62,089 bases of DNA from an uncultured Candidatus Saccharimonas sp. (lineage in GTDB: Bacteria > Patescibacteriota > Saccharimonadia > Saccharimonadales > Saccharimonadaceae). How positions within the stretch are numbered: the stretch's first letter is position 1; each line of letters opens with the position of its first letter. The notes beneath the pieces were generated by a model that was not told the origin of the DNA, did no database searches, and saw only the letters and a list, made by a program, of their open reading frames with translations. Below, piece after piece: positions 1,915 through 44,248 of the stretch. The position numbers and the translations under genes were made by a program. The stretch is from assembly GCA_964419165.1 (NCBI GenBank), contig CAYQOL010000001.1, positions 1 to 62,089 of the forward strand, written 5' to 3'.

Positions 1915-3582
1915 ATGCGCAAGATGCATAAGGGTGGACCTTTGATTACTCCAAAGATGGCGCGGATATTCCGAGCCATTGCTATGTTCATACCGATTAT
2001 TCTACTTTCTTACGGCTTACTGATACATCTGGGTTATATAGAATCATCGAACGAAATTAATCTGATTGGTCTTTTTGTTTTTACCTTCTGGTGGTCATGT
2101 GTTCTGATAATACAATTTCTGTTTCCCGTCGGTTCTAAGTTTGATATATTTCTAAGATTATTAGCTGTTCATCTTTTAGTAGGCTCTTATTTATTATTCT
2201 ATTCGGGAATAGTATCGCCTTTTATCGGAGGTTGTTTATTAATGATGCTCGCGTCATATCTTTGTTTTTCATATAAAGGGCTGCACTTAAGTACGCTTTC
2301 TTTTTTGGCAATAGTATTCTTTGATATATTGGCATGGAATCAAAACAATATTCTAATTGTCAAATATGATTTACTAGCCGCAATAGCGATATTGATTACT
2401 AACATTCTGATACTTAGCTACAGCTACACTAACAAATCAAAGGGCAATAACAAGGCTGAGTTGATACGAAGTAAGGCACGTGAATCTTTGCAACAGGATC
2501 GCATCTCTACGATTATAAACAATATGACCGATGCATTAATAAGTACCGACGCTAACGGCAATATCGTAATTTATAATGCCGCGAGCCTAAACATTCTAGA
2601 CACCAACATAAACCTAGAGGGTCATAGTATTGACGAAATACTGCCATTAACTGATCAAAGCGGTAAAAAGATTATCTTGTCGGAGGAATTCAAAAAAGCT
2701 AAGACGACCGTCAAACGTGATGATTTAGACTACAAAATCAGCGTTGACGAAAAAATGCGTCTGGAAGTTACATTTTCTCCGATTCGAAGCAGTTTCAATC
2801 ATATCAAGAACATTAGAAACGGTTACATCATATTGATGCGCGACATAACCAAAGCCAAAAGCCTAGAAGAAGAGCGTGACGAATTCATTAGTGTTGTCAG
2901 CCACGAATTAAGAACGCCTATAGCTATCGCCGAGGGAACAATATCGAACGTACTTATGATGTTTGACCACAAAGACGTTACAAAGAAAATGATGAAAGAC
3001 AGTGCCAAAACCGCTCACGAACAGATATTATTCTTGTCCAGTATGGTAAATGACCTCAGTACGCTATCACGAGCCGAACGGGGAGTGGCGGGTACCACCG
3101 AATTGATAGATGTCACCGAACTGGCGCATAAATTGTTCGGGAAATATCAACCAGAAGCTTTAGAGAAAAAACTGACTTTGAATTTAGATTTATCACCTAA
3201 ATTAGGAAAAGTAAACGTCAGCAGGCTATACCTTGAAGAATTATTACAAAACTTCATTACAAATGCGATTAAATACACAAAAAAAGGCAACGTAGACATT
3301 ATCATTAAACAAGAAAACGGTTCAATTAAGTTTTTAATCAAGGACAGTGGTATTGGTATTTCAAAAAGCGATCAGGTAAAAGTATTCGATAAATTTTTCC
3401 GTAGCGAAGATTATCGTACTCGCGAGACAGGCGGAACTGGGTTGGGGCTATATATCGCCGCAAAACTAGCTCACAAGATGGGCGTAAAAATTCAGTTGAC
3501 AAGCCGCTTGAATTTCGGCTCGACGTTCAGTTTTTCCGTTCCTGAGGTCAAAGACCCATCCGGCTTGACTGATAAGAAATGA
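1915..3582 (+). CDS. membrane sensor histidine kinase with PAS-like domain
   Basis: Hydrophobic N-terminal half. H-box SHELRTPIA, N-box ITNAIKYT, G-boxes DSGIGI and GGTGLGLYIA. The exact start is uncertain (ATGs at 1915, 1924, 1957). Confidence 0.8.
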   Translation: MRKMHKGGPLITPKMARIFRAIAMFIPIILLSYGLLIHLGYIESSNEINLIGLFVFTFWWSCVLIIQFLFPVGSKFDIFLRLLAVHLLVGSYLLFYSGIVSPFIGGCLLMMLASYLCFSYKGLHLSTLSFLAIVFFDILAWNQNNILIVKYDLLAAIAILITNILILSYSYTNKSKGNNKAELIRSKARESLQQDRISTIINNMTDALISTDANGNIVIYNAASLNILDTNINLEGHSIDEILPLTDQSGKKIILSEEFKKAKTTVKRDDLDYKISVDEKMRLEVTFSPIRSSFNHIKNIRNGYIILMRDITKAKSLEEERDEFISVVSHELRTPIAIAEGTISNVLMMFDHKDVTKKMMKDSAKTAHEQILFLSSMVNDLSTLSRAERGVAGTTELIDVTELAHKLFGKYQPEALEKKLTLNLDLSPKLGKVNVSRLYLEELLQNFITNAIKYTKKGNVDIIIKQENGSIKFLIKDSGIGISKSDQVKVFDKFFRSEDYRTRETGGTGLGLYIAAKLAHKMGVKIQLTSRLNFGSTFSFSVPEVKDPSGLTDKK

Positions 3583-8306: not shown

Positions 8307-9482
8307 ATGAGTCGTAACAAGACTGACAAAAAAGTAGCACTAGTCGTACCGCATATATTTCTACACCGCGACATCTTGCCGGACGTGATTTTTTCGCCCG
8401 GCATTCTTGCTATCAAATTAGCTGAAGGGCTTGAGCATTGCGACATCGACGTTACTTTATTCACGCCAGGACCAATTGATTCGACAGTAAAAAACATATC
8501 GGCCGATATGAGTTACTTTGAAGCCGAACTTAACGCCCGCGGCGACTCATATTTGGATTTACTCAAGAAACACCCGTCCGTTTTCGTCTCCCTTGCGCGC
8601 CAAGTCCAATCGGAAATCATAGCAAAAGCTTATGACATTGCGAACAAAGACGGCTTTGATTTGGTTCATATATACACCAACGAAGAAGATATTGCTTTAC
8701 CGTTTTCAAAATTATGCAGAAAACCAGTAATCTTCACGCATCACGACCCATTTAATTTTTTAATCCGTTATCGCAGTATTTTTCCGAAATATCCCGATTT
8801 GAATTACGTATCTTTTTCAATTTCTCAACGAAAGTCTATGCCCCAAAATACCAACTGGATCGCAAATATCTACCACGGACTTGATGAAAAAGGTTTTGAA
8901 TATTTCGATAAGGCCGACGGCGATTACGTCGCCTTTCTGGGCAGAATAATCGAACCGAAAGGCGTACATCTTGCAATCGAAGCCGTAAATAAACATAACC
9001 TAGTTAACAATACGAACTTGAAATTAAAGATTGCCGGTAAACATTACTCCGATACTAGCAAAGATGACTATTGGCAAAAAATAATCCAACCTAAACTAAG
9101 TCCGAATATCGAATACGTCGGTTTCATCAAAGAGACAAAAGATAAAAATGAATTCTTAGGACGGGCCAAAGCACTGATTGTTCCGTCGACGTTCGATGAG
9201 CCTTTCGGTATGGTTATGATAGAGGCTTTGGCTAGCGGTACGCCGCTAATCGGTCTGAATAGTGGTTCAATTCCTGAAATTATTAATCAAAATAACGGTA
9301 TATTGGTGGTTAAGGATGCTAACGAAGAAATCACAACAGAACGCTTGTCACTTGCAATTACTCAAGCTGGATCAATAAATCGTCAAGCTTGCAGAGAAGA
9401 TTTCGAAAAACGCTTCACTATAAGTCGGATGTGCCGTAACTACGCCGATACTTACGAAAGATTAATTAATGAATCGAGCTAA
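8307..9482 (+). CDS. glycosyltransferase, GT-B fold (GT4-like)
   Basis: C-terminal FLGRA.ALIVPS..DEPFG.V.IEALA.GTP.I is the GT4 E-x7-E region. Confidence 0.75.
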   Translation: MSRNKTDKKVALVVPHIFLHRDILPDVIFSPGILAIKLAEGLEHCDIDVTLFTPGPIDSTVKNISADMSYFEAELNARGDSYLDLLKKHPSVFVSLARQVQSEIIAKAYDIANKDGFDLVHIYTNEEDIALPFSKLCRKPVIFTHHDPFNFLIRYRSIFPKYPDLNYVSFSISQRKSMPQNTNWIANIYHGLDEKGFEYFDKADGDYVAFLGRIIEPKGVHLAIEAVNKHNLVNNTNLKLKIAGKHYSDTSKDDYWQKIIQPKLSPNIEYVGFIKETKDKNEFLGRAKALIVPSTFDEPFGMVMIEALASGTPLIGLNSGSIPEIINQNNGILVVKDANEEITTERLSLAITQAGSINRQACREDFEKRFTISRMCRNYADTYERLINESS

Positions 9483-9497
9483 CCCAAATAATCATTA

Positions 9498-10322
9498 CTA
9501 CACAATTACTATCGGTACTTTGATTGCAGGGTGCGATTCATAATCCACCAATTCGAAATCATCAAACTTAAAATCGTCGATGGTTTTTTGATTGCCGTGA
9601 ATCAATAATTTTGGAAACTTCATCGGTTTTCTGATAACCTGCTCGCGCGCCGCTTCAAGTTGATTACCATACAAATGCGCATCACCTATAGATACGACCA
9701 GCTCGCGTGCTTCCAGATTTGTGATTTTTGCAATCATCATCAGCAGTTCGGCGTATTGAGCAACATTGAACGGCAAACCCAGAAAGACATCACTTGACCT
9801 TTGATACAACATCATATATAGCTTGCCTTTAATTACATCTAGCTGAAATAAAGTGTGGCAAGGTGGTAGTCGCATCTCATCTAACTCGCCGGCGTTCCAG
9901 CCCGAAACTAGAATCGCTTTGGAATTCGGGTTGTTTTTGATTTCATCAATAACCCATTGCAGTTGGTCAAACTCCGTTCCGTCGGGTTTTCGCCAATGGC
10001 GCCATTGTACGCCATAAATACGCCCCAAGGTACCTTCTTTAACTGATTTTGCATCTTCGAAACTATCCCAAATATGAACGTCGTTGTCGTTCAGGTACTT
10101 CGGCGTCTGATTGTCTCCCGATATAAACCACAACATTTCATGAGTCAATGCGCGAAAACCGAACATTTTTTTGGTAGTCATCAGGGGAAAGCCATAACGC
10201 AAATCAAATCGTAGCTGAGCCCCAAAAACAGTCTTTAGCGATTCAATGCCGCGACTTTGCTTGGTTTTACCATCTTTTAAAATCCTTGCTAAAAGTTTCA
10301 AATATTGATATTCCGGGTGCAT
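9498..10322 (-). CDS. thyA: thymidylate synthase (ThyA type)
   Basis: Canonical motifs: RLPPCHTLFQ (catalytic Cys), YQRSSDVFLGLPFN and GDAHLY. TAG stop at 9498..9500. Confidence 0.95.
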   Translation of the reverse strand: MHPEYQYLKLLARILKDGKTKQSRGIESLKTVFGAQLRFDLRYGFPLMTTKKMFGFRALTHEMLWFISGDNQTPKYLNDNDVHIWDSFEDAKSVKEGTLGRIYGVQWRHWRKPDGTEFDQLQWVIDEIKNNPNSKAILVSGWNAGELDEMRLPPCHTLFQLDVIKGKLYMMLYQRSSDVFLGLPFNVAQYAELLMMIAKITNLEARELVVSIGDAHLYGNQLEAAREQVIRKPMKFPKLLIHGNQKTIDDFKFDDFELVDYESHPAIKVPIVIV

Positions 10323-10323
10323 T

Positions 10324-11310
10324 TTAGCCCTCCTTAGCTATAATATCGTTTTCAACTATCAAGCGGCGCACGGCCTTGCCAGCTTTTTCGAGCAGCGAAA
10401 CGGCATATCCGTCGGAATGATCTAGCGAATAGACAATTTCAGCAATATCGGTTTCGCATAACATTCTTGCACATGTCGGGCAGGGCAACAGATTGATAAA
10501 CAATGAAGTTCCGACCAAATCAATTTTTTCTTTTTGAGCTTTGATAAGTGCTGTCACTTCGGCATGATTAGTATCGTAGTTATTCAAATCGCCCATAGGT
10601 GACAGATGGCGTTCGCGTGACGCGCCGTTATGCCACGCAAAAGTTTCGAACGGTACGGTAGTATTGTGCGCATACATCATCGGCTGATATCTCGAACCAA
10701 TCCTATTTGCAATTACAACTCCAGTCTGATGTTCGTTGGCGAATGATTTTTTGGCGACTTCGTTTGTTAGTTTCATAATTTCAATCTCACTTAATGGCAC
10801 ACTACGAAGTGAAATTTTGGGCTGGAACTTTACGGCATAAGCCTTGGCCTCGGCTTCGTCTACAAAAGGCGATACTAACTTGAAGGATATGCTATTCGAT
10901 ACTAAAGCGTAATATTCAGGACGCATATGAAAGGAGTGCAACCAAGACCCATTAATAAACAGGGCAAAACGAAATTTAATTTTTTTCAATATCGGCACGA
11001 TATCGGATTGATTGCAGCGAAGGACGGTAATTTTGTGCGGACTGGCTGATGAGTTGACTTTGTCTACGACAGACTGGATATCATTCAACTGCAACGTTTT
11101 AAATTGTGGTTGGTTTTCGAAGCCTTTAATATATTCCTCGTTCGCAATGGCGACGACAAGATTACGTTGTGGTAAATATTCTTTGACAAGCTGCTTAAAG
11201 CGCGAAGCCGACATTTCACGGGATATTGAAAAGAAGGTTGCGTTCAAATCTTTCAGAGGTTTTTTGCTACCAAATGCCAAATCAGACCAATTATATTCGT
11301 ATTTACTCAT
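10324..11310 (-). CDS. deoxycytidylate (dCMP)/cytidine deaminase domain fused to an unrecognised ~190-aa N-terminal domain
   Basis: The C-terminal HAEVTAL...LPCPTCARML is the zinc-binding H(A)E...PCxxC deaminase signature. Start set at ATG 11310 (SD AGGAAA 7 nt upstream) rather than TTG 11340. It overlaps the HIT stop by 8 nt. Confidence 0.75.
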   Translation of the reverse strand: MSKYEYNWSDLAFGSKKPLKDLNATFFSISREMSASRFKQLVKEYLPQRNLVVAIANEEYIKGFENQPQFKTLQLNDIQSVVDKVNSSASPHKITVLRCNQSDIVPILKKIKFRFALFINGSWLHSFHMRPEYYALVSNSISFKLVSPFVDEAEAKAYAVKFQPKISLRSVPLSEIEIMKLTNEVAKKSFANEHQTGVVIANRIGSRYQPMMYAHNTTVPFETFAWHNGASRERHLSPMGDLNNYDTNHAEVTALIKAQKEKIDLVGTSLFINLLPCPTCARMLCETDIAEIVYSLDHSDGYAVSLLEKAGKAVRRLIVENDIIAKEG

Positions 11311-11824
11311 TCTGATATTTCCTAGAAAATCTTTTAGCAAGCTTTTTAATATCTTCTATTTGTTCTTTGTATAGAGTTGCGTTCTCAATCGGGGTATATT
11401 TTAATCTGCGATAGTTCCATACCGAAAAATCAGGAGAGTCAAACGGCATACAATGAAAGTGTAGATGTTCGACTGTACTTTGAGCCTCGACACCGTCTTT
11501 TTGAATAATCTGCATACCTTTTATACCATAAATATCACGGATCATTTTTTTGGCGATGTACATAAATTTTCGCATCGTTTCCCATTCGGCCGTAGTTAAT
11601 TCTTTGACCGAACGAATGTGGCGGCGGGGGATAATCATGCAGTGGCCATCAATATAGGCATAAAGTGCAACCGTCAATACAACCCCGTTTTCTTCGTAAA
11701 CCACATAGTTTTCATTTAAATCACAAAAGACACACTTGCCAACAGATTGCCATATACCATCATATTTGCCAGTAGCTCTGGCATCACGATACATTTCTTG
11801 CTTTTTTTGCTCGGCCTCGTCCAT
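11303..11824 (-). CDS. HIT-family nucleotide hydrolase/transferase
   Basis: Histidine triad HLHFHCMP, plus an N-terminal CVFC zinc-type motif as in GalT/Ap4A-phosphorylase-like HIT proteins. Confidence 0.75.
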   Translation of the reverse strand: MDEAEQKKQEMYRDARATGKYDGIWQSVGKCVFCDLNENYVVYEENGVVLTVALYAYIDGHCMIIPRRHIRSVKELTTAEWETMRKFMYIAKKMIRDIYGIKGMQIIQKDGVEAQSTVEHLHFHCMPFDSPDFSVWNYRRLKYTPIENATLYKEQIEDIKKLAKRFSRKYQNE

Positions 11825-13894: not shown

Positions 13895-13923
13895 TTGACA
13901 ACAGATGAGTACTTTGGTAGAAT
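13895..13923 (+). promoter_or_regulatory. sigma-70-type promoter for rplJ-rplL
   Basis: TTGACA (13895..13900), 17-nt spacer, then TAGAAT (13918..13923) preceded by TGG (extended -10). Confidence 0.55.
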
Positions 13924-14125
13924 ACTTCGAGACATCACCAAAGACAGTAGCCGTGCTTAGCACTTAATTAGCTACCGAGGATTATGTAAAATCTACATTT
14001 TTCGATAATTAGTCTTTGGCAGTGCGAGATTCAAAGACTTTTTTTGTTTCTTGTTCTGCCGCTTCGCCGTACGGCGAATGTCTGAGTATTAACAATCCGG
14101 TCGGACAATTAATAAACTAAAGGAG
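13924..14125 (+). promoter_or_regulatory. rplJ (L10) leader with attenuator-type hairpin
   Basis: A ~200-nt untranslated leader. AGTCTTTG...CAAAGACT (14011..14039) is followed by T7 (14040..14046), upstream of the SD AAAGGAG. Confidence 0.4.
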
Positions 14126-33075: not shown

Positions 33076-34218
33076 TTATTCCCTTTTGGCTTCGACACCA
33101 ATAGCTTGACTAATGTGAGTAAAGCCGTCTTGTTCAAGCAAACGGGGTAGGTCATTATTAATCTGCGCGGCTAATTGCGGACCGTTAAATATCATACCTG
33201 TAATTATTTCAATCAAACTGGCGCCTAGTTTAATTTTCACATAAGCATCTTCGGCCGAAAATATGCCGCCGACACCAATTATCGTCAGTTTTTTGCCATA
33301 ACTCAAATACGTTTGACGGATAAGTTCATTACTCAGATCGAACGTCGGTCCGCCGCTTAGATTGCCTTTTATATTTTCAGGCAGACTTTCTTTTAGATTT
33401 GCTTTCGAGCGATCTTTTGCCAGATTAGCTATCGTCACGCCAGCAATTTTATGATTCACGATACAATCCAATAATTCTTTGAATTTATCCCACGACAAAT
33501 CAATCGGCATTTTTATAAACACCGGTTTTTTCAAACCGATTTTATCGACGGCGGATAATAATCTATCTAACCTTTCAGGCGTTGTAAAAGGTTCGCCACC
33601 ATAAGCATTAGGGCAAGAAATGTTTATCTCAATCATACTTATCGAAAGCTCATCCTTAGTGCGTTCCAAACTGGTCACATAATCATTAATACCTTCTCGT
33701 TCACTAACAACCTTACTACCGTTGGTTTTAGCGACCGATAACACGACAGGCATACCGCCGATAGATTCCGAATCATAGCTTCTAAGGCGTTTTATAACAA
33801 TTTCAGAACCGTCATTAGCCAATCCAGCATTAACAACCAGAGATTTCGTTTTTGGCAAGCGATGAAACCAAGGGCGGGGATTCCCTGTACACTTTTGTGC
33901 CGTAACTGAACCGACCGTAGCAAATCCGAAACCCAGCGCTGAAATTGTCGGTACGATTTCACCGTTTTTGTCCAAACCGGCTGCCAATCCGACGGGATTA
34001 GTAAATTTAATATCTTTTAAATTTTGGAACAAGCTTTCATTTGGTTTTTCTAAGAAAGTATATTCCGTAAGCGACCTCAAAAACGATATACGACCCATAA
34101 CCGATGCGAAACGTATCATAGAACCGTGCACCGAATCAGCCGACATCATAAATATTAATGGCTTTGCTAAATAAACATAGCAAAAATTTATGATTTCCCA
34201 TACTATCCGCCTAATCAT
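33076..34218 (-). CDS. pyrD: dihydroorotate dehydrogenase, class 2 (quinone-type) architecture
   Basis: N-terminal hydrophobic extension, with GLAAGLDKNGE, N.SCPN and GVGGI motifs. Confidence 0.85.
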   Translation of the reverse strand: MIRRIVWEIINFCYVYLAKPLIFMMSADSVHGSMIRFASVMGRISFLRSLTEYTFLEKPNESLFQNLKDIKFTNPVGLAAGLDKNGEIVPTISALGFGFATVGSVTAQKCTGNPRPWFHRLPKTKSLVVNAGLANDGSEIVIKRLRSYDSESIGGMPVVLSVAKTNGSKVVSEREGINDYVTSLERTKDELSISMIEINISCPNAYGGEPFTTPERLDRLLSAVDKIGLKKPVFIKMPIDLSWDKFKELLDCIVNHKIAGVTIANLAKDRSKANLKESLPENIKGNLSGGPTFDLSNELIRQTYLSYGKKLTIIGVGGIFSAEDAYVKIKLGASLIEIITGMIFNGPQLAAQINNDLPRLLEQDGFTHISQAIGVEAKRE

Positions 34219-38814: not shown

Positions 38815-39579
38815 TTACGGTCTAAGCGTACCTGCAAAGACTTGCCAAGCGAGAAGTGATTTGGCAACCAAACTTAGTACAATATAGGTAAGTTCGCCAT
38901 ACAGGTAATCTTTCCATTTGCCGATTTTTTTATACTGCAAAACCATATTGATAGCGAAACAGTTGAAGAATACGAATATCGAGACAAATATCCAATAAAC
39001 AAAGTCTGGTGCTTTACTGCCGTTAGCCGCGCCTAACCACATATATATTGCTATAACCACCCAAGGAATTGCGCCAGCAAAACAGCCTACCCAAAAACTT
39101 AGCCAATTAGTCTTTTTCGTTGTTTGATTGTGAATCTCCATCACTAGACCCATCAAATTCATAACGACGGTCAGTGAAAATATCATCACCAAGCTCGCTA
39201 GATCATAAATACCGACAAGCAATGATATAGCAACCATCATAACGCTTGCCGAAACAGAATACTCTATCCAGCGCGCTTTGTTCAAACCCTTCTTTAAATC
39301 GCTTTCATACTCCTTGTTATATACCGTCGCGATTAGCAGGTGAGCTACAGCCGATAGAAAAAAGAATGCCGCAATCAGTATCGGCAAGGACAAATTTAAA
39401 AGATTAGTCGTTGTAGGCTCTAGGTTCTGTGTAATCGGATTATACTTCAAATAACTGCCGCTAATTGGCAAATCATAAATCCTGCTTAAAAAAACAATGG
39501 CGCAACCTTGCGCCAGATGAAAGAATGCCATTACTAGATTGAACTTTCGCAAACCGCTGAACGTAATTTGCTTGCTCAT
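38815..39579 (-). CDS. heliorhodopsin
   Basis: 254 aa, 7 TM. FHLAQG (His21), AHLL (His80), RWIEYSVSASVM (Glu106), FWVGCFAGAIPW and GELTYIVLSLVAKSLLAWQVF (Lys240). From memory, these align almost residue-for-residue with HeR 48C12 H23/H80/E107/K241. Confidence 0.9.
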   Translation of the reverse strand: MSKQITFSGLRKFNLVMAFFHLAQGCAIVFLSRIYDLPISGSYLKYNPITQNLEPTTTNLLNLSLPILIAAFFFLSAVAHLLIATVYNKEYESDLKKGLNKARWIEYSVSASVMMVAISLLVGIYDLASLVMIFSLTVVMNLMGLVMEIHNQTTKKTNWLSFWVGCFAGAIPWVVIAIYMWLGAANGSKAPDFVYWIFVSIFVFFNCFAINMVLQYKKIGKWKDYLYGELTYIVLSLVAKSLLAWQVFAGTLRP

Positions 39580-40415: not shown

Positions 40416-41143
40416 TCTTTGCCTCCTACGAGTTTCAAGAAACTTTCTTCGATGGTTTTGGATTTTGTTACTTTCAATATCTCAGCAGGGGAATCGTGAG
40501 CGATAATTTCGCCGTCTCTTATAAGAATCAGGTCATCGCACCTTTCGGCTTCGTCCATAGAGTGACTGGTTACTATTATAGTAACCCCTTGTTTTGATAA
40601 ATGATTAAAAAGTTTCCAAAGTCGGTCGCGCAACACCGGGTCCAAACCGACCGTCGGTTCATCCAGAACTAGCAGCTCGGGCGAACCAAGTAAAGCGACT
40701 GCCAGCGAAACCCGCTGTTTTTGTCCAGTTGACAGATTACTGACTAGATTCTTGGATTTATTGGTGAGCTCGACAGCTCTTAGTACGTCATCGACAATCC
40801 TAGAAATCTCATTTTTCGGGCAACCCGTCATAACCGCGAAATATCCAAGGTTCTCTATTACGGTCAAGTCCGAATATATCGATAGTTCTTGGGTCATATA
40901 ACCGATTCTATCCCTAAGGTTTGCCGAGCCGGCTAGTTCGCCAAAAACGATAATTTCACCTTCAGAAAAATGCAGCCTACCGACGATACTGCGAATCAGA
41001 GTAGTCTTGCCCGCACCTGACGGCCCAATAACACCAGTTATTTTACCAGACGGTAATTTGACACTGACGCTCTTTAGGGCCCTAAAACCTTTACCCAAGG
41101 TAACTGATAATTTTGAAACGCTTATCGCGGCTGGCATATACAA
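40412..41143 (-). CDS. ABC transporter ATP-binding protein (DrrA/CcmA-like)
   Basis: Walker A GPSGAGKTT, signature LSTGQKQRVSLA and Walker B LVLDEPTVGLD. Confidence 0.9.
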   Translation of the reverse strand: MYMPAAISVSKLSVTLGKGFRALKSVSVKLPSGKITGVIGPSGAGKTTLIRSIVGRLHFSEGEIIVFGELAGSANLRDRIGYMTQELSIYSDLTVIENLGYFAVMTGCPKNEISRIVDDVLRAVELTNKSKNLVSNLSTGQKQRVSLAVALLGSPELLVLDEPTVGLDPVLRDRLWKLFNHLSKQGVTIIVTSHSMDEAERCDDLILIRDGEIIAHDSPAEILKVTKSKTIEESFLKLVGGKE

Positions 41144-41207
41144 TTATCATACCAGAGATTATGGACAAAATATCCAGAAGAGTTATAATTATTTCATTAA
41201 CAAACAA

Positions 41208-41338
41208 ATACTGGAATCCGGTGTAAATCCGGAACTGTGCCGCAACGGTAAGGCTATTCAGCCAAGTCCGAGACAGTGTAAATCTCCCGAGCAGGAGTAG
41301 TTATATTTCGCGATATTTCCTCTGCTTGGGCGCAGGGG
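41208..41338 (+). promoter_or_regulatory. cobalamin (B12) riboswitch-like aptamer plus SD-sequestering expression platform
   Basis: Core GGAAUCCGGUGUAAAUCCGGAACUGUGCCGCAACGGUAAGG and B12-box-like GCCAAGUCCGAGACAGUG. Closing helix AUACUG (41208..41213) / CAGUGU (41274..41279). Alternative pairings of CCUCUGCUUGGG (41319..41330) follow. Promoter TGGACA-16-TATAAT at 41162..41189. Confidence 0.7.
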
Positions 41339-41350
41339 TATTTTAAATTA

Positions 41351-42781
41351 ATGTTACAAACGTCGAGATTGGAAACGATCCATAATCATCCGGAAATTCC
41401 AAGCGGGGAGCGCACCGTTTATCTGGGCAGATTAGCTATCAAATCGGAGTATCTAGGTATTAACGATCCGTTGACGCATCTGCATCAGTACATAGAAAGA
41501 GGCGATTCAGCGTTGGTAGGTATAAAAATGGACATTGAAACCGACATCGCCGAAAGGTTACCAAGAACTCCTTTCGTCAATTACGTCGGTTTTAATTATG
41601 ACGGTAACGATTTTCTTTCCGAGAGAGACAAGGTGTCGATGGCAAAGATGGCTTCAACGAATTTGAAAATATTCAAAGAAGAAAAAGATCAAAACCCCAT
41701 CCTAATAGACGAATATAGGCGCGCTAAATTGGAATCACTTGAGGTTCATAAATTAACCAGCTGGTTCCCAAAAGCTCCGATCGGTTCGTGCCTGATTTTT
41801 GAATCACTTCCGATAGGCGATCAAAAATTTGCGATTTCAAGAATATACCGCAAGTTAGGAAACAACAAAATTGAGGGTTGTTTCGTGTCACTTTACGGCT
41901 CTAGTGTCGAAAGATTTAACGAATTTCGCAAAGCACTTTGTGTCGAAACACCGGTATGCGAGAACGAATACGATATATTAAGCAATCATTATGAATTTTA
42001 TGCGCCGGAAATAAAATCCAAGGAAGATTTCGTAAATTTTTACTTAGGCCTTTACGACCATCTAATGAATGAGTCTGATGGAAGAGATTATTGTTTTGGT
42101 ATTGAGACTAATAAGTATCAACAAAAAATAAACGGCCTCGAAAAAGTCCGCAAGCAACCGAAACTATCAGCTATATATTTGGATACTGTCAGAGCGCTAG
42201 CCGAAAGCAACGGGATAATCACGCCCAAACTTATCGAAATAAACAATAAATTAAAGCTAGGTTATCAAATCAGTGAAAAATCCGAATTCGACAAGGATTT
42301 TGCAAAAAACATTTTAAGCGACGTCATAGCCGGAATCACCAGTGTAATTGACAGAGCCAACAGCGACTTGCTTGACGGTCTCGAAAGTTACGACATCACC
42401 CAGGACGCCAGCTACGAAGCGGTTTCATTTTACAATGGGCAGGCGAGGGCCACCGGCGAACGATACGAAAGTAACGGCTGTCCTGAATACGACAGACAAT
42501 CACAGACAGTATCTATTGACGATTCCACAAACGAAGAATCAATTATAAAGAAAGCTTTTGATATTAATGGAAATGAATTGAAAAATTTTGGCAAACCAAA
42601 AATTGGGCTGTGCCGGATAATGAATTGTCCTTCGCGCGGCGAAATTAATTGGCTTCCACAAAAAACACTCGTAGGCGGCTGTGATATTTGCGTCTGCTGC
42701 CATAGGCTTTTTGAACAGGGTAGGTCGCCTAAATCCGTATATAACAAAGCAAAATCGCCAAAACCCCGCAAAGCAGCTTGA
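41351..42781 (+). CDS. hypothetical cytoplasmic protein (476 aa) with C-terminal Cys cluster
   Basis: Long clean ORF with no TM or signal peptide. C-terminal CRIMNCPSRG...GGCDICVCCH looks like a zinc-ribbon. No family recognised. Confidence 0.6.
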   Translation: MLQTSRLETIHNHPEIPSGERTVYLGRLAIKSEYLGINDPLTHLHQYIERGDSALVGIKMDIETDIAERLPRTPFVNYVGFNYDGNDFLSERDKVSMAKMASTNLKIFKEEKDQNPILIDEYRRAKLESLEVHKLTSWFPKAPIGSCLIFESLPIGDQKFAISRIYRKLGNNKIEGCFVSLYGSSVERFNEFRKALCVETPVCENEYDILSNHYEFYAPEIKSKEDFVNFYLGLYDHLMNESDGRDYCFGIETNKYQQKINGLEKVRKQPKLSAIYLDTVRALAESNGIITPKLIEINNKLKLGYQISEKSEFDKDFAKNILSDVIAGITSVIDRANSDLLDGLESYDITQDASYEAVSFYNGQARATGERYESNGCPEYDRQSQTVSIDDSTNEESIIKKAFDINGNELKNFGKPKIGLCRIMNCPSRGEINWLPQKTLVGGCDICVCCHRLFEQGRSPKSVYNKAKSPKPRKAA

Positions 42782-43537: not shown

Positions 43538-44248
43538 TTGCTATTATCGAACTGTCAACGACCTAACCGACAACCCGTCCATACATTCCAAGGTTTTCAA
43601 AAAGAAATCCAACGTCAGTTATTCACTACCATCGAGTTAGCACGTGAACGTTGGTATGATTTCAGTGAATCAGACTTGACTATAATCGACGAAACCCCGC
43701 AATTCATTCCAGTAACACCTACTGAAGTTCCATTAGTCGTACTTTACCTGCCTGACAGAGGAAAAAAATCAGGCATACTAAGGACGGCTGATATGTACTG
43801 GGATGCATTAAGACTACCAAGCGGATGTAAAAAAGTATGCTCGAATCAACTTCTTAGCAAACTTGACCAACTGGTGCTTGCAAATGGCATCGAACACAAA
43901 CCCGGTTTGAATATCCTAGGATTTGATCCATATTATCACGATATCGGTGCCGACTATTTCAGCAATAATGACACGGATTGGCTGGCGCATTGCGAAATAA
44001 TAGCCTCGAACGTTATGTTGGACAATTGGGTTTTAGAATGCGATGGCATCAAAAGGCGGTTCATCGAGTTTGGTGGTTACAGATTACCGTCCAAGGACGA
44101 AAATTACCCCGAGATAATCAGAATCCAATGCTTTGAAAACGACGACGGTTACCAATTGTCAATGTATTCTGCTCCGCGCGATCCTTTCGATTGTTGGTCA
44201 ACACCGAAAGTCAGGAAAGTTTTTCCCGTCAACAAGCTTGCCGCATAG
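43538..44248 (+). CDS. hypothetical protein (236 aa, TTG start)
   Basis: SD AAGGAGGGG lies 8 nt upstream. A hairpin terminator follows at ~44303..44335. No motif recognised. Confidence 0.5.
   Translation: MLLSNCQRPNRQPVHTFQGFQKEIQRQLFTTIELARERWYDFSESDLTIIDETPQFIPVTPTEVPLVVLYLPDRGKKSGILRTADMYWDALRLPSGCKKVCSNQLLSKLDQLVLANGIEHKPGLNILGFDPYYHDIGADYFSNNDTDWLAHCEIIASNVMLDNWVLECDGIKRRFIEFGGYRLPSKDENYPEIIRIQCFENDDGYQLSMYSAPRDPFDCWSTPKVRKVFPVNKLAA

What the first reader, a model, noticed from the sequence alone, without database searches (positions are those of the whole stretch)
41162..42781. Cobalamin-riboswitch-like leader controlling an unrecognisable 476-aa Cys-rich cytoplasmic protein
Seen in sequence: a TGGACA-N16-TATAAT promoter (41162..41189) is followed by AUACUG-GAAUCCGGUGUAAAUCCGGAACUGUGCCGCAACGGUAAGG-GCUAUUCAGCC-AAGUCCGAGA-CAGUGU (41208..41279). 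This tracks the conserved cobalamin riboswitch core. As I recall the E. coli btuB leader, it reads GGGAAUCCAGUGCGAAUCUGGAGCUGACGCGCAGCGGUAAGG ... CCAAGCCCGAAGACCUGCC. The match includes a B12-box-like AGUCCGAGAC and a closing helix AUACUG/CAGUGU. There is no long peripheral extension, so it looks like a minimal variant. Downstream, CCUCUGCUUGGG (41319..41330) can pair with CCCGAGCAGGAG (41286..41297). Alternatively its CCUCUGC part can pair with GCAGGGG (41332..41338), which contains the only SD before ATG 41351. That is a classic translational on/off platform. The controlled ORF has no TM, no signal peptide and no motif I can place, only a C-terminal CxxxxC...CxxCxCC cluster. Established knowledge: B12 riboswitches almost always control B12 uptake or salvage genes, or B12-independent isozymes such as metE and nrd. 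Inference: this ORF is a candidate new B12-related function (handling, tailoring or a B12-independent substitute) in a reduced genome that probably cannot make corrinoids.
Basis: partly seen in the sequence, partly recalled or inferred. Interest (0 to 1): 0.8.

Follow-up and report, generated by a model that had tools for sequence, protein, structure and literature searches.

The report
B12 riboswitch guarding an orphan protein
A genuine vitamin-B12-sensing RNA switch sits in front of a 476-residue protein of unknown fold and function in a Saccharibacteria genome, and every detectable relative of that protein has the same switch, so the family is a strong candidate for an undescribed B12-related function in these tiny symbiotic bacteria.

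Summary
Window 41166..41297 matches Rfam RF00174 (Cobalamin) at 41.3 bits (gathering score 31.5, E 5e-7). The aptamer is a compact class-II-like form: a P3-P6 four-way junction, a short hairpin in place of the large P6 extension, and no P2 module. In 19 homologous leaders 96% of cells in the proposed helices are paired, and 12 of 21 pairs show changes on both sides. Downstream lies a P13-like hairpin (41284..41297) whose invariant loop CG(A)GCA complements the invariant L5 UGCCG. An SD-sequestering, terminator-like hairpin (41319..41338) follows, and its 5' arm can pair with P13 instead. This is the logic of the experimentally dissected P. megaterium metE switch, so B12 should repress the gene. 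The ORF (41351..42781) has no match in Pfam, NCBIfam, PHROGs, PADLOC, PDB sequences or Foldseek (PDB, BFVD), although the AlphaFold models are confident. Its family (about 166 clusters; every named record is Saccharimonadales) has six invariant Cys within the core family. All 27 evaluable loci carry the riboswitch, including relatives at about 20% identity, and no partner gene is conserved. The protein's function is unknown. It most likely handles or salvages B12, or bypasses a B12-dependent step. The RNA is ordinary; the gene it controls is new.

The parts
41162..41189 (+). Sigma-70-type promoter: -35 TGGACA (41162..41167), 16-nt spacer, -10 TATAAT (41184..41189)
   Evidence: Matches 11 of 12 consensus positions. 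A -10 box lies exactly 6 nt upstream of the conserved ATTAACAA in related loci. Function is inferred.
41196..41203 (+). Conserved AUUAACAA, the probable 5' end of the transcript; unpaired
   Evidence: Nearly invariant in 19 leaders. It is unpaired in the RNAalifold consensus. Its role is unknown.
41208..41279 (+). Cobalamin aptamer core: P3 41210..41213/41274..41277; P4-L4 41217..41233; P5-L5 41236..41244 (L5 UGCCG 41238..41242); P6 41246..41248/41268..41270 with tip hairpin 41252..41263; J6/3 B12 box AAGUCCGAGAC 41264..41274
   Evidence: RF00174 hit at 41.3 bits against a gathering score of 31.5. 96.4% of cells are paired and 12 of 21 pairs change on both sides; slid controls give 20-48% paired.
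41284..41297 (+). P13-like hairpin CUCC-CGAGCA-GGAG; loop CG(A)GCA is complementary to L5 UGCCG (putative kissing loop, A41290 bulged)
   Evidence: The stem covaries (C-G to U-A and U-G) and the loop is invariant in all leaders. Complementarity was read from the sequence. The kissing loop itself is inferred.
41286..41330 (+). Alternative (ON-state) anti-sequestor pairing: 41286..41297 with 41319..41330
   Evidence: Duplex energy -17.4 kcal/mol in the window, and the best duplex maps to the 5' arm or loop of the terminal hairpin in 18 of 20 leaders. ON (-14.1 as drawn; MFE -16.9) and OFF (-15.3 kcal/mol) states are close in energy.
41319..41345 (+). SD-sequestering, terminator-like hairpin CCUCUGC-UUGGGC-GCAGGGG (41319..41338); SD AGGGG 41334..41338; U-rich tail 41339..41345
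   Evidence: Found by the terminator scan. An equivalent hairpin with covarying arms ends 8-15 nt before the start codon in relatives.
41351..42781 (+). ORF for a 476-aa soluble protein of an uncharacterised Saccharimonadales family: N-terminal alpha/beta domain (about residues 20-250), helical domain (about 260-370), C-terminal Cys module (C377, C421, C426, C444, C447, C450, H451)
   Evidence: ORF. No family match. 95 close homologues and 166 profile hits. Conservation. AF2 model pLDDT 83.3, pTM 0.71. No Foldseek hit at E<=1e-3.

Best explanation
The leader is a compact, class-II-like cobalamin riboswitch that turns the downstream gene off when a corrinoid is bound. Transcription probably starts near 41196. 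The aptamer (41208..41279) folds into the P3-P6 four-way junction. When a corrinoid is bound, loop L5 (UGCCG) kisses the loop of the next hairpin, P13 (CG(A)GCA), and holds that hairpin closed. The segment 41319..41330 is then free to fold with 41332..41338 into a hairpin that buries the Shine-Dalgarno AGGGG. That hairpin is followed by a U-rich tract, so it may also terminate transcription. Without ligand, the loop and 3' half of P13 pair with 41319..41330, the SD is exposed and the ORF is translated. The only gene that consistently travels with this switch is the 476-aa ORF. It encodes a soluble protein with a Cys-rich module that probably binds metal (a Zn ribbon and/or an Fe-S site), and it belongs to a family known only from Saccharimonadales. 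Its function is unknown. Because B12 represses it, and because these reduced genomes are not expected to make corrinoids, the cell most likely needs it when corrinoid is scarce. It would then either capture, process or activate scavenged corrinoid in the cytoplasm, or replace a B12-dependent reaction. Shown here: riboswitch identity, helices, conserved platform geometry, the gene association and the protein's orphan status. Inferred: ligand binding, the kissing loop, the sign of regulation and the protein's role.
For: RF00174 scores above its gathering threshold in the window and in 12 related loci; RF01689 scores above threshold in L030. Covariation supports P3, P4, P6, the P6 tip and P13: 96.4% of cells are paired, 12 of 21 pairs change on both sides, 0 of 500 shuffles reach the observed values, and slid controls give 20-48%. 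RNAalifold independently recovers P4, the P6 tip, P13 and the sequestor hairpin. L5 and the P13 loop are invariant and complementary in every leader. Relative to the published L5 consensus UCCCG (PMC10327014), the C-to-G change in L5 is matched by a G-to-C change in the P13 loop. The P13 / anti-sequestor / sequestor arrangement recurs in the relatives and is nearly isoenergetic in the window. [quoted passage not shown] All 27 evaluable family loci carry the leader, including relatives at about 18-25% identity. No neighbouring gene is constant. No other cobalamin riboswitch was found in about 350 kb of held DNA. The protein has no hit in any library despite confident models.
Against: No ligand-binding or expression data exist. 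The kissing loop cannot be tested by covariation within this set because both loops are invariant. No P1 helix or J1/3 element was identified in the window, and the transcription start is only predicted. SD-to-ATG spacing is rather long (12 nt). In two leaders (L006 and L028) the anti-sequestor complementarity is weak. No B12-dependent enzyme or B12 transporter was found in the 62-kb window (38 ORFs scanned), so I could not show that this organism uses B12 at all. Gene neighbours give no B12 link.
Confidence: 0.8

Rival explanations
1. The protein is a cytoplasmic corrinoid-handling factor: a binder or chaperone, a cob(II)alamin reductase, an adenosyltransferase, or a dealkylase or remodelling enzyme of a new type. 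It is made when B12 is scarce so that scavenged corrinoid is used efficiently.
For: B12 riboswitches commonly control salvage genes, for example the yvqK adenosyltransferase in the B. subtilis yvrC operon (PMC7367189). The protein is soluble. It has a conserved Cys cluster that could hold a redox-active metal site or ligate cobalt. It forms a single-gene unit with no transporter attached.
Against: It has no similarity to any known B12-binding domain, adenosyltransferase or CblC-like protein in sequence or fold. No DxHxxG-type motif is present. His451 is replaced by Gln in distant relatives.
Confidence: 0.35
2. The protein is a B12-independent substitute or bypass for a B12-dependent reaction, analogous to metE versus metH or nrdAB/nrdDG versus nrdJ. 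It is switched off when B12 allows the dependent enzyme to work.
For: This is the other classic class of B12-repressed genes (established knowledge; metE example). Invariant acidic and polar residues in the N-terminal domain (E68, D87, S90, S96, R124, E128, E131, R164, K168, Y231, D236) suggest an enzyme. In one clade the gene lies among DNA and nucleotide metabolism genes (RNase H, PIF1-type helicase, RecO). The window encodes ThyA and dCMP deaminase, so deoxynucleotide supply matters to this organism.
Against: The fold is unlike any ribonucleotide reductase, methionine synthase or other known isozyme. The synteny is clade-specific and absent from the window. I could not show that a B12-dependent counterpart exists in these genomes.
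Confidence: 0.3
3. The riboswitch is real, but the protein has nothing directly to do with B12. The cell uses corrinoid level as a proxy signal (for example for host contact or nutritional state) to control an unrelated nucleic-acid-binding or regulatory protein.
For: The protein has a zinc-ribbon-like module, and many homologues carry Lys/Glu-rich tails. Single members weakly touch PF07282 (Cas12f TNB zinc ribbon) and PF17034. The N-terminal domain shows faint PAS/GAF-like resemblance. The M. tuberculosis ppe2 riboswitch is a precedent for a B12 switch in front of a gene of uncertain function (PMC11260477 abstract).
Against: A 100% association over very deep divergence argues for a tight functional link rather than an opportunistic one. 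All the weak domain hits are below threshold.
Confidence: 0.15
4. The leader is a degenerate or chance cobalamin-like sequence with no regulatory function.
For: The score is only about 10 bits above the gathering threshold. The model's P1/P2 part aligns poorly and overlaps the promoter. The MFE z-score of the whole leader is modest at -1.67.
Against: E is 5e-7. The leader is conserved at 27 of 27 loci, with compensatory changes in five helices, invariant ligand-pocket junctions and a conserved expression platform.
Confidence: 0.02

Closest known systems
Class-II cobalamin riboswitches (Cbl-IIa/IIb; Rfam RF01689 AdoCbl-II, RF01482 AdoCbl; for example env8HyCbl, PDB 4FRN)
   Same: Both have a P3-P6 four-way junction, a T-loop-like L4 (GGUGUAAAUCC), a B12 box in J6/3, only a loop or short hairpin on P6, no P2 module, and an L5-L13 kissing loop with a bulge, as described for env8.
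   Different: No P1 helix or J1/3 internal loop is identifiable in the window; the 5' segment is a conserved unpaired AUUAACAA.... L5 is UGCCG rather than the consensus UCCCG. The window itself scores best against the general RF00174 model. Ligand selectivity (AdoCbl versus MeCbl/HyCbl) cannot be called from sequence.
Priestia megaterium metE repressing corrinoid riboswitch (PMC10327014)
   Same: The expression-platform logic is the same. The kissing loop stabilises P13. [quoted passage not shown] With ligand, the terminator forms (compared).
   Different: That RNA is a Cbl-I-type transcriptional switch controlling a known B12-independent enzyme. Here the terminal hairpin also buries the SD, ends only 12 nt before the start codon, and controls an unknown gene.
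Mycobacterium tuberculosis ppe2 B12 riboswitch (PMC11260477)
   Same: It is a B12 riboswitch in front of a gene whose link to B12 is not understood (abstract).
   Different: The lineage, aptamer type and cargo are all different. I know that case only from its abstract.
Zinc-ribbon and ferredoxin-like Cys modules (for example PF07282 Cas12f1-like TNB, PF17034; CxxCxxC...CP Fe-S motifs)
   Same: The C-terminal module has C-x4-C-P ... C-x2-C-x2-C plus a further C-P (C377), patterns typical of zinc ribbons and of [4Fe-4S] sites.
   Different: Only isolated sub-threshold hits were found. There is no Fer4 or rubredoxin family match. Which metal binds, if any, is unknown.

Membership tests
Cobalamin riboswitch (Rfam clan CL00101, RF00174) | Covariance-model score at or above the curated gathering score | tested here: met
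   41.3 bits against 31.5, E 5e-7, at 41166..41297. Twelve related loci also score above threshold.
Cobalamin riboswitch (Rfam clan CL00101, RF00174) | Four-way junction of helices P3, P4, P5 and P6 supported by base-pair covariation | tested here: met
   96.4% of cells are paired and 12 of 21 pairs change on both sides. P4 shows this in 4 of 5 pairs, and P3, P6 and the P6 tip also show it. P5 covaries in L032 (A-U instead of U-A).
Cobalamin riboswitch (Rfam clan CL00101, RF00174) | Conserved B12 box / J6/3 and J3/4 pocket nucleotides | tested here: met
   GGAA after P3, AAGUCCGAnAC, and CUGUGCCGCAAC.GU are invariant or nearly so in 19 leaders and align to the model consensus.
Cobalamin riboswitch (Rfam clan CL00101, RF00174) | Kissing loop between L5 and a loop (L13) of the expression platform | tested here: inconclusive
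   L5 UGCCG and the P13 loop CG(A)GCA are complementary (5 bp with one bulge) and both invariant. There is no internal covariation to test. The change relative to the published consensus UCCCG is compensatory. No structural or mutational data exist.
Cobalamin riboswitch (Rfam clan CL00101, RF00174) | Binds a corrinoid and changes gene expression | not testable with these tools
   Requires in-line probing or ITC, and reporter assays.
Class II (Cbl-II) cobalamin riboswitch | Only a loop or short hairpin on P6 instead of the P7-P11 extension | tested here: met
   64 model positions are replaced by 6 nt. The P6 tip hairpin is 41252..41263. L030 has a plain loop and hits RF01689 at 41.8 bits against 36.5. 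The definition comes from PMC7367189.
Class II (Cbl-II) cobalamin riboswitch | No loop-stem-loop P2 module between P1 and P3 | tested here: met
   Only about 14 nt lie between the predicted start and P3, and they are unpaired in the consensus fold. The Rfam P2 columns align with non-standard pairs and overlap the promoter. Caveat: the transcription start is predicted, not measured.
Class II (Cbl-II) cobalamin riboswitch | P1 helix with a J1/3 T-loop-like internal loop contacting J6/3 | tested here: inconclusive
   No conserved P1 or J1/3 was found in the window or its close relatives. L035 has a possible P1, read from the sequence. Some accepted Cbl-II members also lack J1/3 (PMC6158498).
Class I (Cbl-I) cobalamin riboswitch | Large P6 extension (P7-P11) and a P2 module | tested here: not met
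   Both are absent from the window. Longer P6 insertions occur in a few relatives (L029, L032, L037), but nothing resembles P7-P11.
Any curated protein family (Pfam-A, NCBIfam, PHROGs, PADLOC) or solved structure | Significant sequence or fold match | tested here: not met
   The window protein has no Pfam family at E<=0.01, and no NCBIfam or per-member Pfam match comes near a curated cut-off. The PDB sequence search gave nothing below E 0.3. PADLOC and PHROGs gave 0 families. Foldseek against PDB and BFVD gave no hit at E<=1e-3 for the whole chain or the N-terminal domain.
Cytochrome c (CXXCH haem attachment) | CXXCH motif in an exported protein, with a family-level match | tested here: not met
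   C447-x-x-C450-H451 is present, but PF00034 is hit weakly by only 6 of 56 members (best E 0.0039). There is no signal peptide or TM segment. His is replaced by Gln in distant relatives.
Ferredoxin-type [4Fe-4S] or zinc-ribbon metal site | Conserved Cys ligand set (CxxCxxC...CP, or two CxxC-type knuckles) | tested here: inconclusive
   C377(P), C421, C426(P), C444, C447 and C450 are invariant in the core family. C377, C447 and C450 remain invariant in the wide alignment. The full six-Cys pattern is visible in the distant sequences. There is no family-level match, and the metal is unknown.

The most novel reading that the evidence does not exclude
The 476-aa family is a previously undescribed kind of B12-related protein with a new fold and a Cys-ligated metal centre. 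It would be either a new cytoplasmic corrinoid-processing or activating enzyme, or a new B12-independent route around a B12-dependent reaction (ribonucleotide reduction is the obvious candidate in a nucleotide-scavenging epibiont). It would have been co-inherited with its riboswitch throughout Saccharimonadales.
Probability: 0.5. Interest if true: 0.8.

Novelty: new member of a known kind. Interest (0 to 1): 0.6.

Why it matters
The RNA adds a compact class-II-like cobalamin riboswitch from the Candidate Phyla Radiation, but it teaches little that is new about riboswitches. The value lies in the cargo. A riboswitch is a rare, ligand-specific functional label on a gene. Here it labels a protein family that no sequence or structure library recognises, in a lineage (Saccharibacteria) whose cofactor economy is largely unknown and which depends on host bacteria. 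I found no paper in the held library that links Saccharibacteria to cobalamin riboswitches. If the family handles corrinoids or bypasses a B12-dependent step, it would reveal how ultra-small epibionts cope with B12 scarcity, and it might add a new enzyme or binding fold to B12 biology. The hypothesis is directly testable with one RNA and one soluble protein.

Tried and rejected
1. Searching viral contigs for relatives found none.
2. Foldseek of the whole-chain model against PDB and BFVD, and of the N-terminal domain against PDB, gave only sub-threshold hits (flavin monooxygenases, class A beta-lactamases, PAS/GAF/longin, PilB N-domains), with TM below 0.3. I rejected these as fold assignments.
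3. The profile search against PDB sequences and per-member Pfam scans at E<=1 gave only noise, apart from the CXXCH-driven Cytochrom_C touches. I rejected those because the protein has no export signal and the His is not conserved.
4. The defence-system and phage libraries were empty. I considered them because KwaB sits next to the gene in one clade; that slot is simply variable.
5. Gene-neighbourhood inference failed. Two recurring arrangements exist (RecO-aaRS-RNaseH-[x]-family-PIF1-CofD-MraZ, and family...PCMT) alongside many unique ones, and no B12 gene is adjacent.
6. I looked for B12-dependent enzymes or transporters in the window. None appeared among 38 ORFs scanned. This is uninformative for the whole genome.
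7. I looked for a P1 helix involving the conserved AUUAACAA and found no consistent partner.
8. RNAalifold's alternative pairing of the junction (columns 60-64 with 71-75, and 38-40 with 109-111) was rejected. It shows only one-sided changes and breaks where the canonical P6 pair covaries.
9. Literature searches for any prior report found nothing relevant.
Full report
**1. The observation**

A whole-window Rfam scan at curated thresholds finds three RNAs. One is RF00174 (Cobalamin riboswitch aptamer) at 41166..41297 on the + strand, at 41.3 bits against a gathering score of 31.5, E 5e-7. In that alignment the conserved core is matched with high posterior probability. This covers GGAA, the P4 hairpin with its GGUGUAAAUCC loop, CUGUGCCGCAAC, GGUAAG and AAGUCCGAGAC. 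The 64 model positions of the P6 extension are replaced by 6 nt. The model's P1/P2 segment aligns poorly and falls on the promoter.

The promoter TGGACA-16-TATAAT (41162..41189) matches 11 of 12 consensus positions. A terminator-like hairpin, CCTCTGC-TTGGGC-GCAGGGG followed by TATTTT, lies at 41319..41338. The ORF 41351..42781 encodes 476 aa. It has no hydrophobic segment (maximum 19-residue Kyte-Doolittle mean 0.9) and carries Cys at 377, 421, 426, 444, 447, 449 and 450.

**2. The RNA across relatives**

The protein has 95 close homologues (E<=1e-78) in the large protein collection. A profile search over 1.84 billion cluster representatives found 166 hits. I fetched loci for close, intermediate and very distant members. 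Every locus with upstream sequence carries the same leader: 25 distinct full leaders plus two contigs that begin inside it. This includes relatives at only about 18-25% identity, where the profile recognised little beyond the C-terminal module (L034, L035, L037).

Rfam scores above threshold in 12 of these loci, and L030 hits the class-II model RF01689 (41.8 bits against 36.5). Several others score just below threshold. No other cobalamin riboswitch occurs in the roughly 350 kb of DNA held.

On a 19-leader alignment I tested helices P3, P4, P5, P6, the P6 tip and a downstream hairpin:
- 96.4% of cells form standard pairs.
- 12 of 21 pairs show changes on both sides.
- None of 500 shuffles reaches the observed values.
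- Sliding the 3' partners by 1-3 columns drops pairing to 20-48%.

RNAalifold independently recovers P4, the P6 tip, the downstream hairpin and the terminal hairpin. For the junction it prefers a different pairing, but that pairing shows only one-sided changes and breaks where canonical P6 covaries.

By the published definitions (PMC7367189) the RNA is class-II-like. It has a four-way junction, no P2 module and only a short hairpin on P6. I found no P1 or J1/3. Some accepted class-II members also lack J1/3, and ligand selectivity in this class cannot be read from sequence (PMC6158498).

**3. The expression platform**

Directly after the aptamer lies a hairpin, CUCC-CGAGCA-GGAG (41284..41297). 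Its stem covaries and its loop is invariant. The loop CG(A)GCA is complementary to the invariant L5 UGCCG, giving 5 bp with one bulged A. Compared with the published L5 consensus UCCCG, the C-to-G change in L5 is matched by a G-to-C change in this loop. A bulged kissing loop is also described for env8. I therefore call this hairpin P13/L13. The kissing loop itself is an inference.

The loop and 3' half of P13 are complementary to 41319..41330 (-17.4 kcal/mol in the window). In 18 of 20 leaders the best duplex maps to the 5' arm or loop of the terminal hairpin. The 3' arm of that hairpin carries the SD (AGGGG, 41334..41338), followed by a U-rich tract and the start codon.

In the window the two states are nearly isoenergetic: -15.3 kcal/mol for P13 plus sequestor, against -14.1 for the anti-sequestor as drawn, with an MFE of -16.9. 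[quoted passage not shown] The most likely behaviour is therefore that a bound corrinoid stabilises the kissing loop and P13, the sequestor/terminator forms, and the gene is switched off. SD burial follows from the geometry. Termination is plausible but untested.

**4. The protein**

No library recognises the protein:
- Pfam, NCBIfam, PHROGs and PADLOC give no significant match.
- PDB sequence searches with the single sequence and with the profile give nothing.
- The distant relatives have no significant Pfam domain either.

AlphaFold models are confident: whole chain pLDDT 83.3, pTM 0.71; N-terminal domain pLDDT 82.9, pTM 0.74. Foldseek nevertheless finds nothing at E<=1e-3 in PDB or BFVD. 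There are only faint PAS/GAF/longin-like and other resemblances, with TM below 0.3.

The model shows an N-terminal alpha/beta domain, a helical domain and a C-terminal Cys module. In the core family the invariant residues include:
- E68, D87, S90, S96, R124, E128, E131, R164, K168, Y231 and D236
- C377, C421, C426, C444, C447 and C450

Across the widest alignment E68, D236, G250, C377, C447 and C450 remain invariant.

The Cys pattern (C-P, C-x4-C-P, C-x2-C-x2-C) fits a zinc ribbon and/or an Fe-S site. The apparent CXXCH is not a haem site: the protein has no export signal, and His is replaced by Gln in distant relatives. All named records are "hypothetical protein" from Saccharimonadaceae or Saccharimonadales.

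**5. Context**

No partner gene is constant. One clade has RecO, a class II aaRS, RNase H, a variable slot, the family member, a PIF1-type helicase, CofD and MraZ. The window and L008 have PCMT downstream. Other loci differ again. The riboswitch plus this single gene is therefore the conserved unit.

The window encodes ThyA, dCMP deaminase and DHODH. No B12-dependent enzyme or B12 transporter appeared among the 38 ORFs scanned. That says nothing about the rest of the genome.

**6. Interpretation**

The RNA is an ordinary cobalamin riboswitch, a new class-II-like member. I estimate about 0.95 confidence for its identity and about 0.8 for the repressing mechanism.

The protein's function is unknown. 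The association holds at every evaluable locus and is very deep, so I consider a B12-linked role likely (about 0.65-0.7). That splits roughly evenly between cytoplasmic corrinoid handling or activation and a B12-independent bypass. A proxy-signal role is less likely.

I found no prior report in the held literature.

Noticed in passing
window 38815..39579 (-): A full-length heliorhodopsin gene (PF18761, E 4.7e-100) lies about 1.8 kb upstream on the opposite strand, in what is evidently a Saccharimonadaceae contig.
   Followed up: no
window 41196..41203, and the equivalent position in L001-L035: An almost invariant AUUAACAA begins exactly 6 nt after the -10 box in nearly all leaders, so it is probably the 5' end of the mRNA. 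It is unpaired in the consensus fold and has no assigned role. It could be a J1/3-like contact, an initiation signal or a protein-binding site.
   Followed up: partly
window 41007..41300 (+); N-termini of P0054, P0133 and P0022: Gene callers translate through the riboswitch. The core reads 'NPELCRNG' or 'NPGLCRNG' in frame, which gives spurious ORFs or false N-terminal extensions in public protein records. These peptide strings are a handy marker for this leader.
   Followed up: partly
window 43538..44248 (+): A 236-aa ORF two genes downstream of the riboswitch-controlled gene has no match in Pfam, NCBIfam, PADLOC or PHROGs.
   Followed up: partly
L009 110..1081; L010 3812..4783; L024 6852..7826; L026 6185..7288: In one clade the slot between RNase H and the riboswitch is variable. 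It holds a KwaB (Kiwa defence) homologue in some genomes, and a GT2 glycosyltransferase or a pilin-like gene in others. It looks like a small integration hotspot just upstream of the riboswitch promoter.
   Followed up: partly
window 13920..14054 (+): A ribosomal protein L10 leader (RF00557, 68.4 bits) lies upstream of the L10 gene. It is an ordinary feature.
   Followed up: no
window 9498..11340 (-) and 33076..34218 (-): The contig encodes thymidylate synthase ThyA, a dCMP-deaminase-domain protein and a dihydroorotate dehydrogenase. This organism therefore keeps some pyrimidine and deoxynucleotide metabolism, which bears on the question of which ribonucleotide reductase it uses.
   Followed up: no
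L029 260..430; L032 about 2960..3000; L037 1545..1590: Some distant leaders carry long insertions in P6, and L029 seems to lack a recognisable 5' strand of P4. Rfam does not detect L029 at E<=1, although L5, the B12 box and the P13 element are intact. It may be an aptamer variant or a decaying copy.
   Followed up: partly
L022 3273..3354 (-): A weak fluoride-riboswitch-like match (20.8 bits, gathering score 34, E 0.25) lies inside a histidine-kinase-like gene. It is probably chance.
   Followed up: no
L001 4965..5687 (-) and 8477..8887 (+): In this locus a VIT1-family iron transporter and a Fur-family regulator flank the family member. This is a single observation, of possible interest if the Cys module binds iron.
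   Followed up: no
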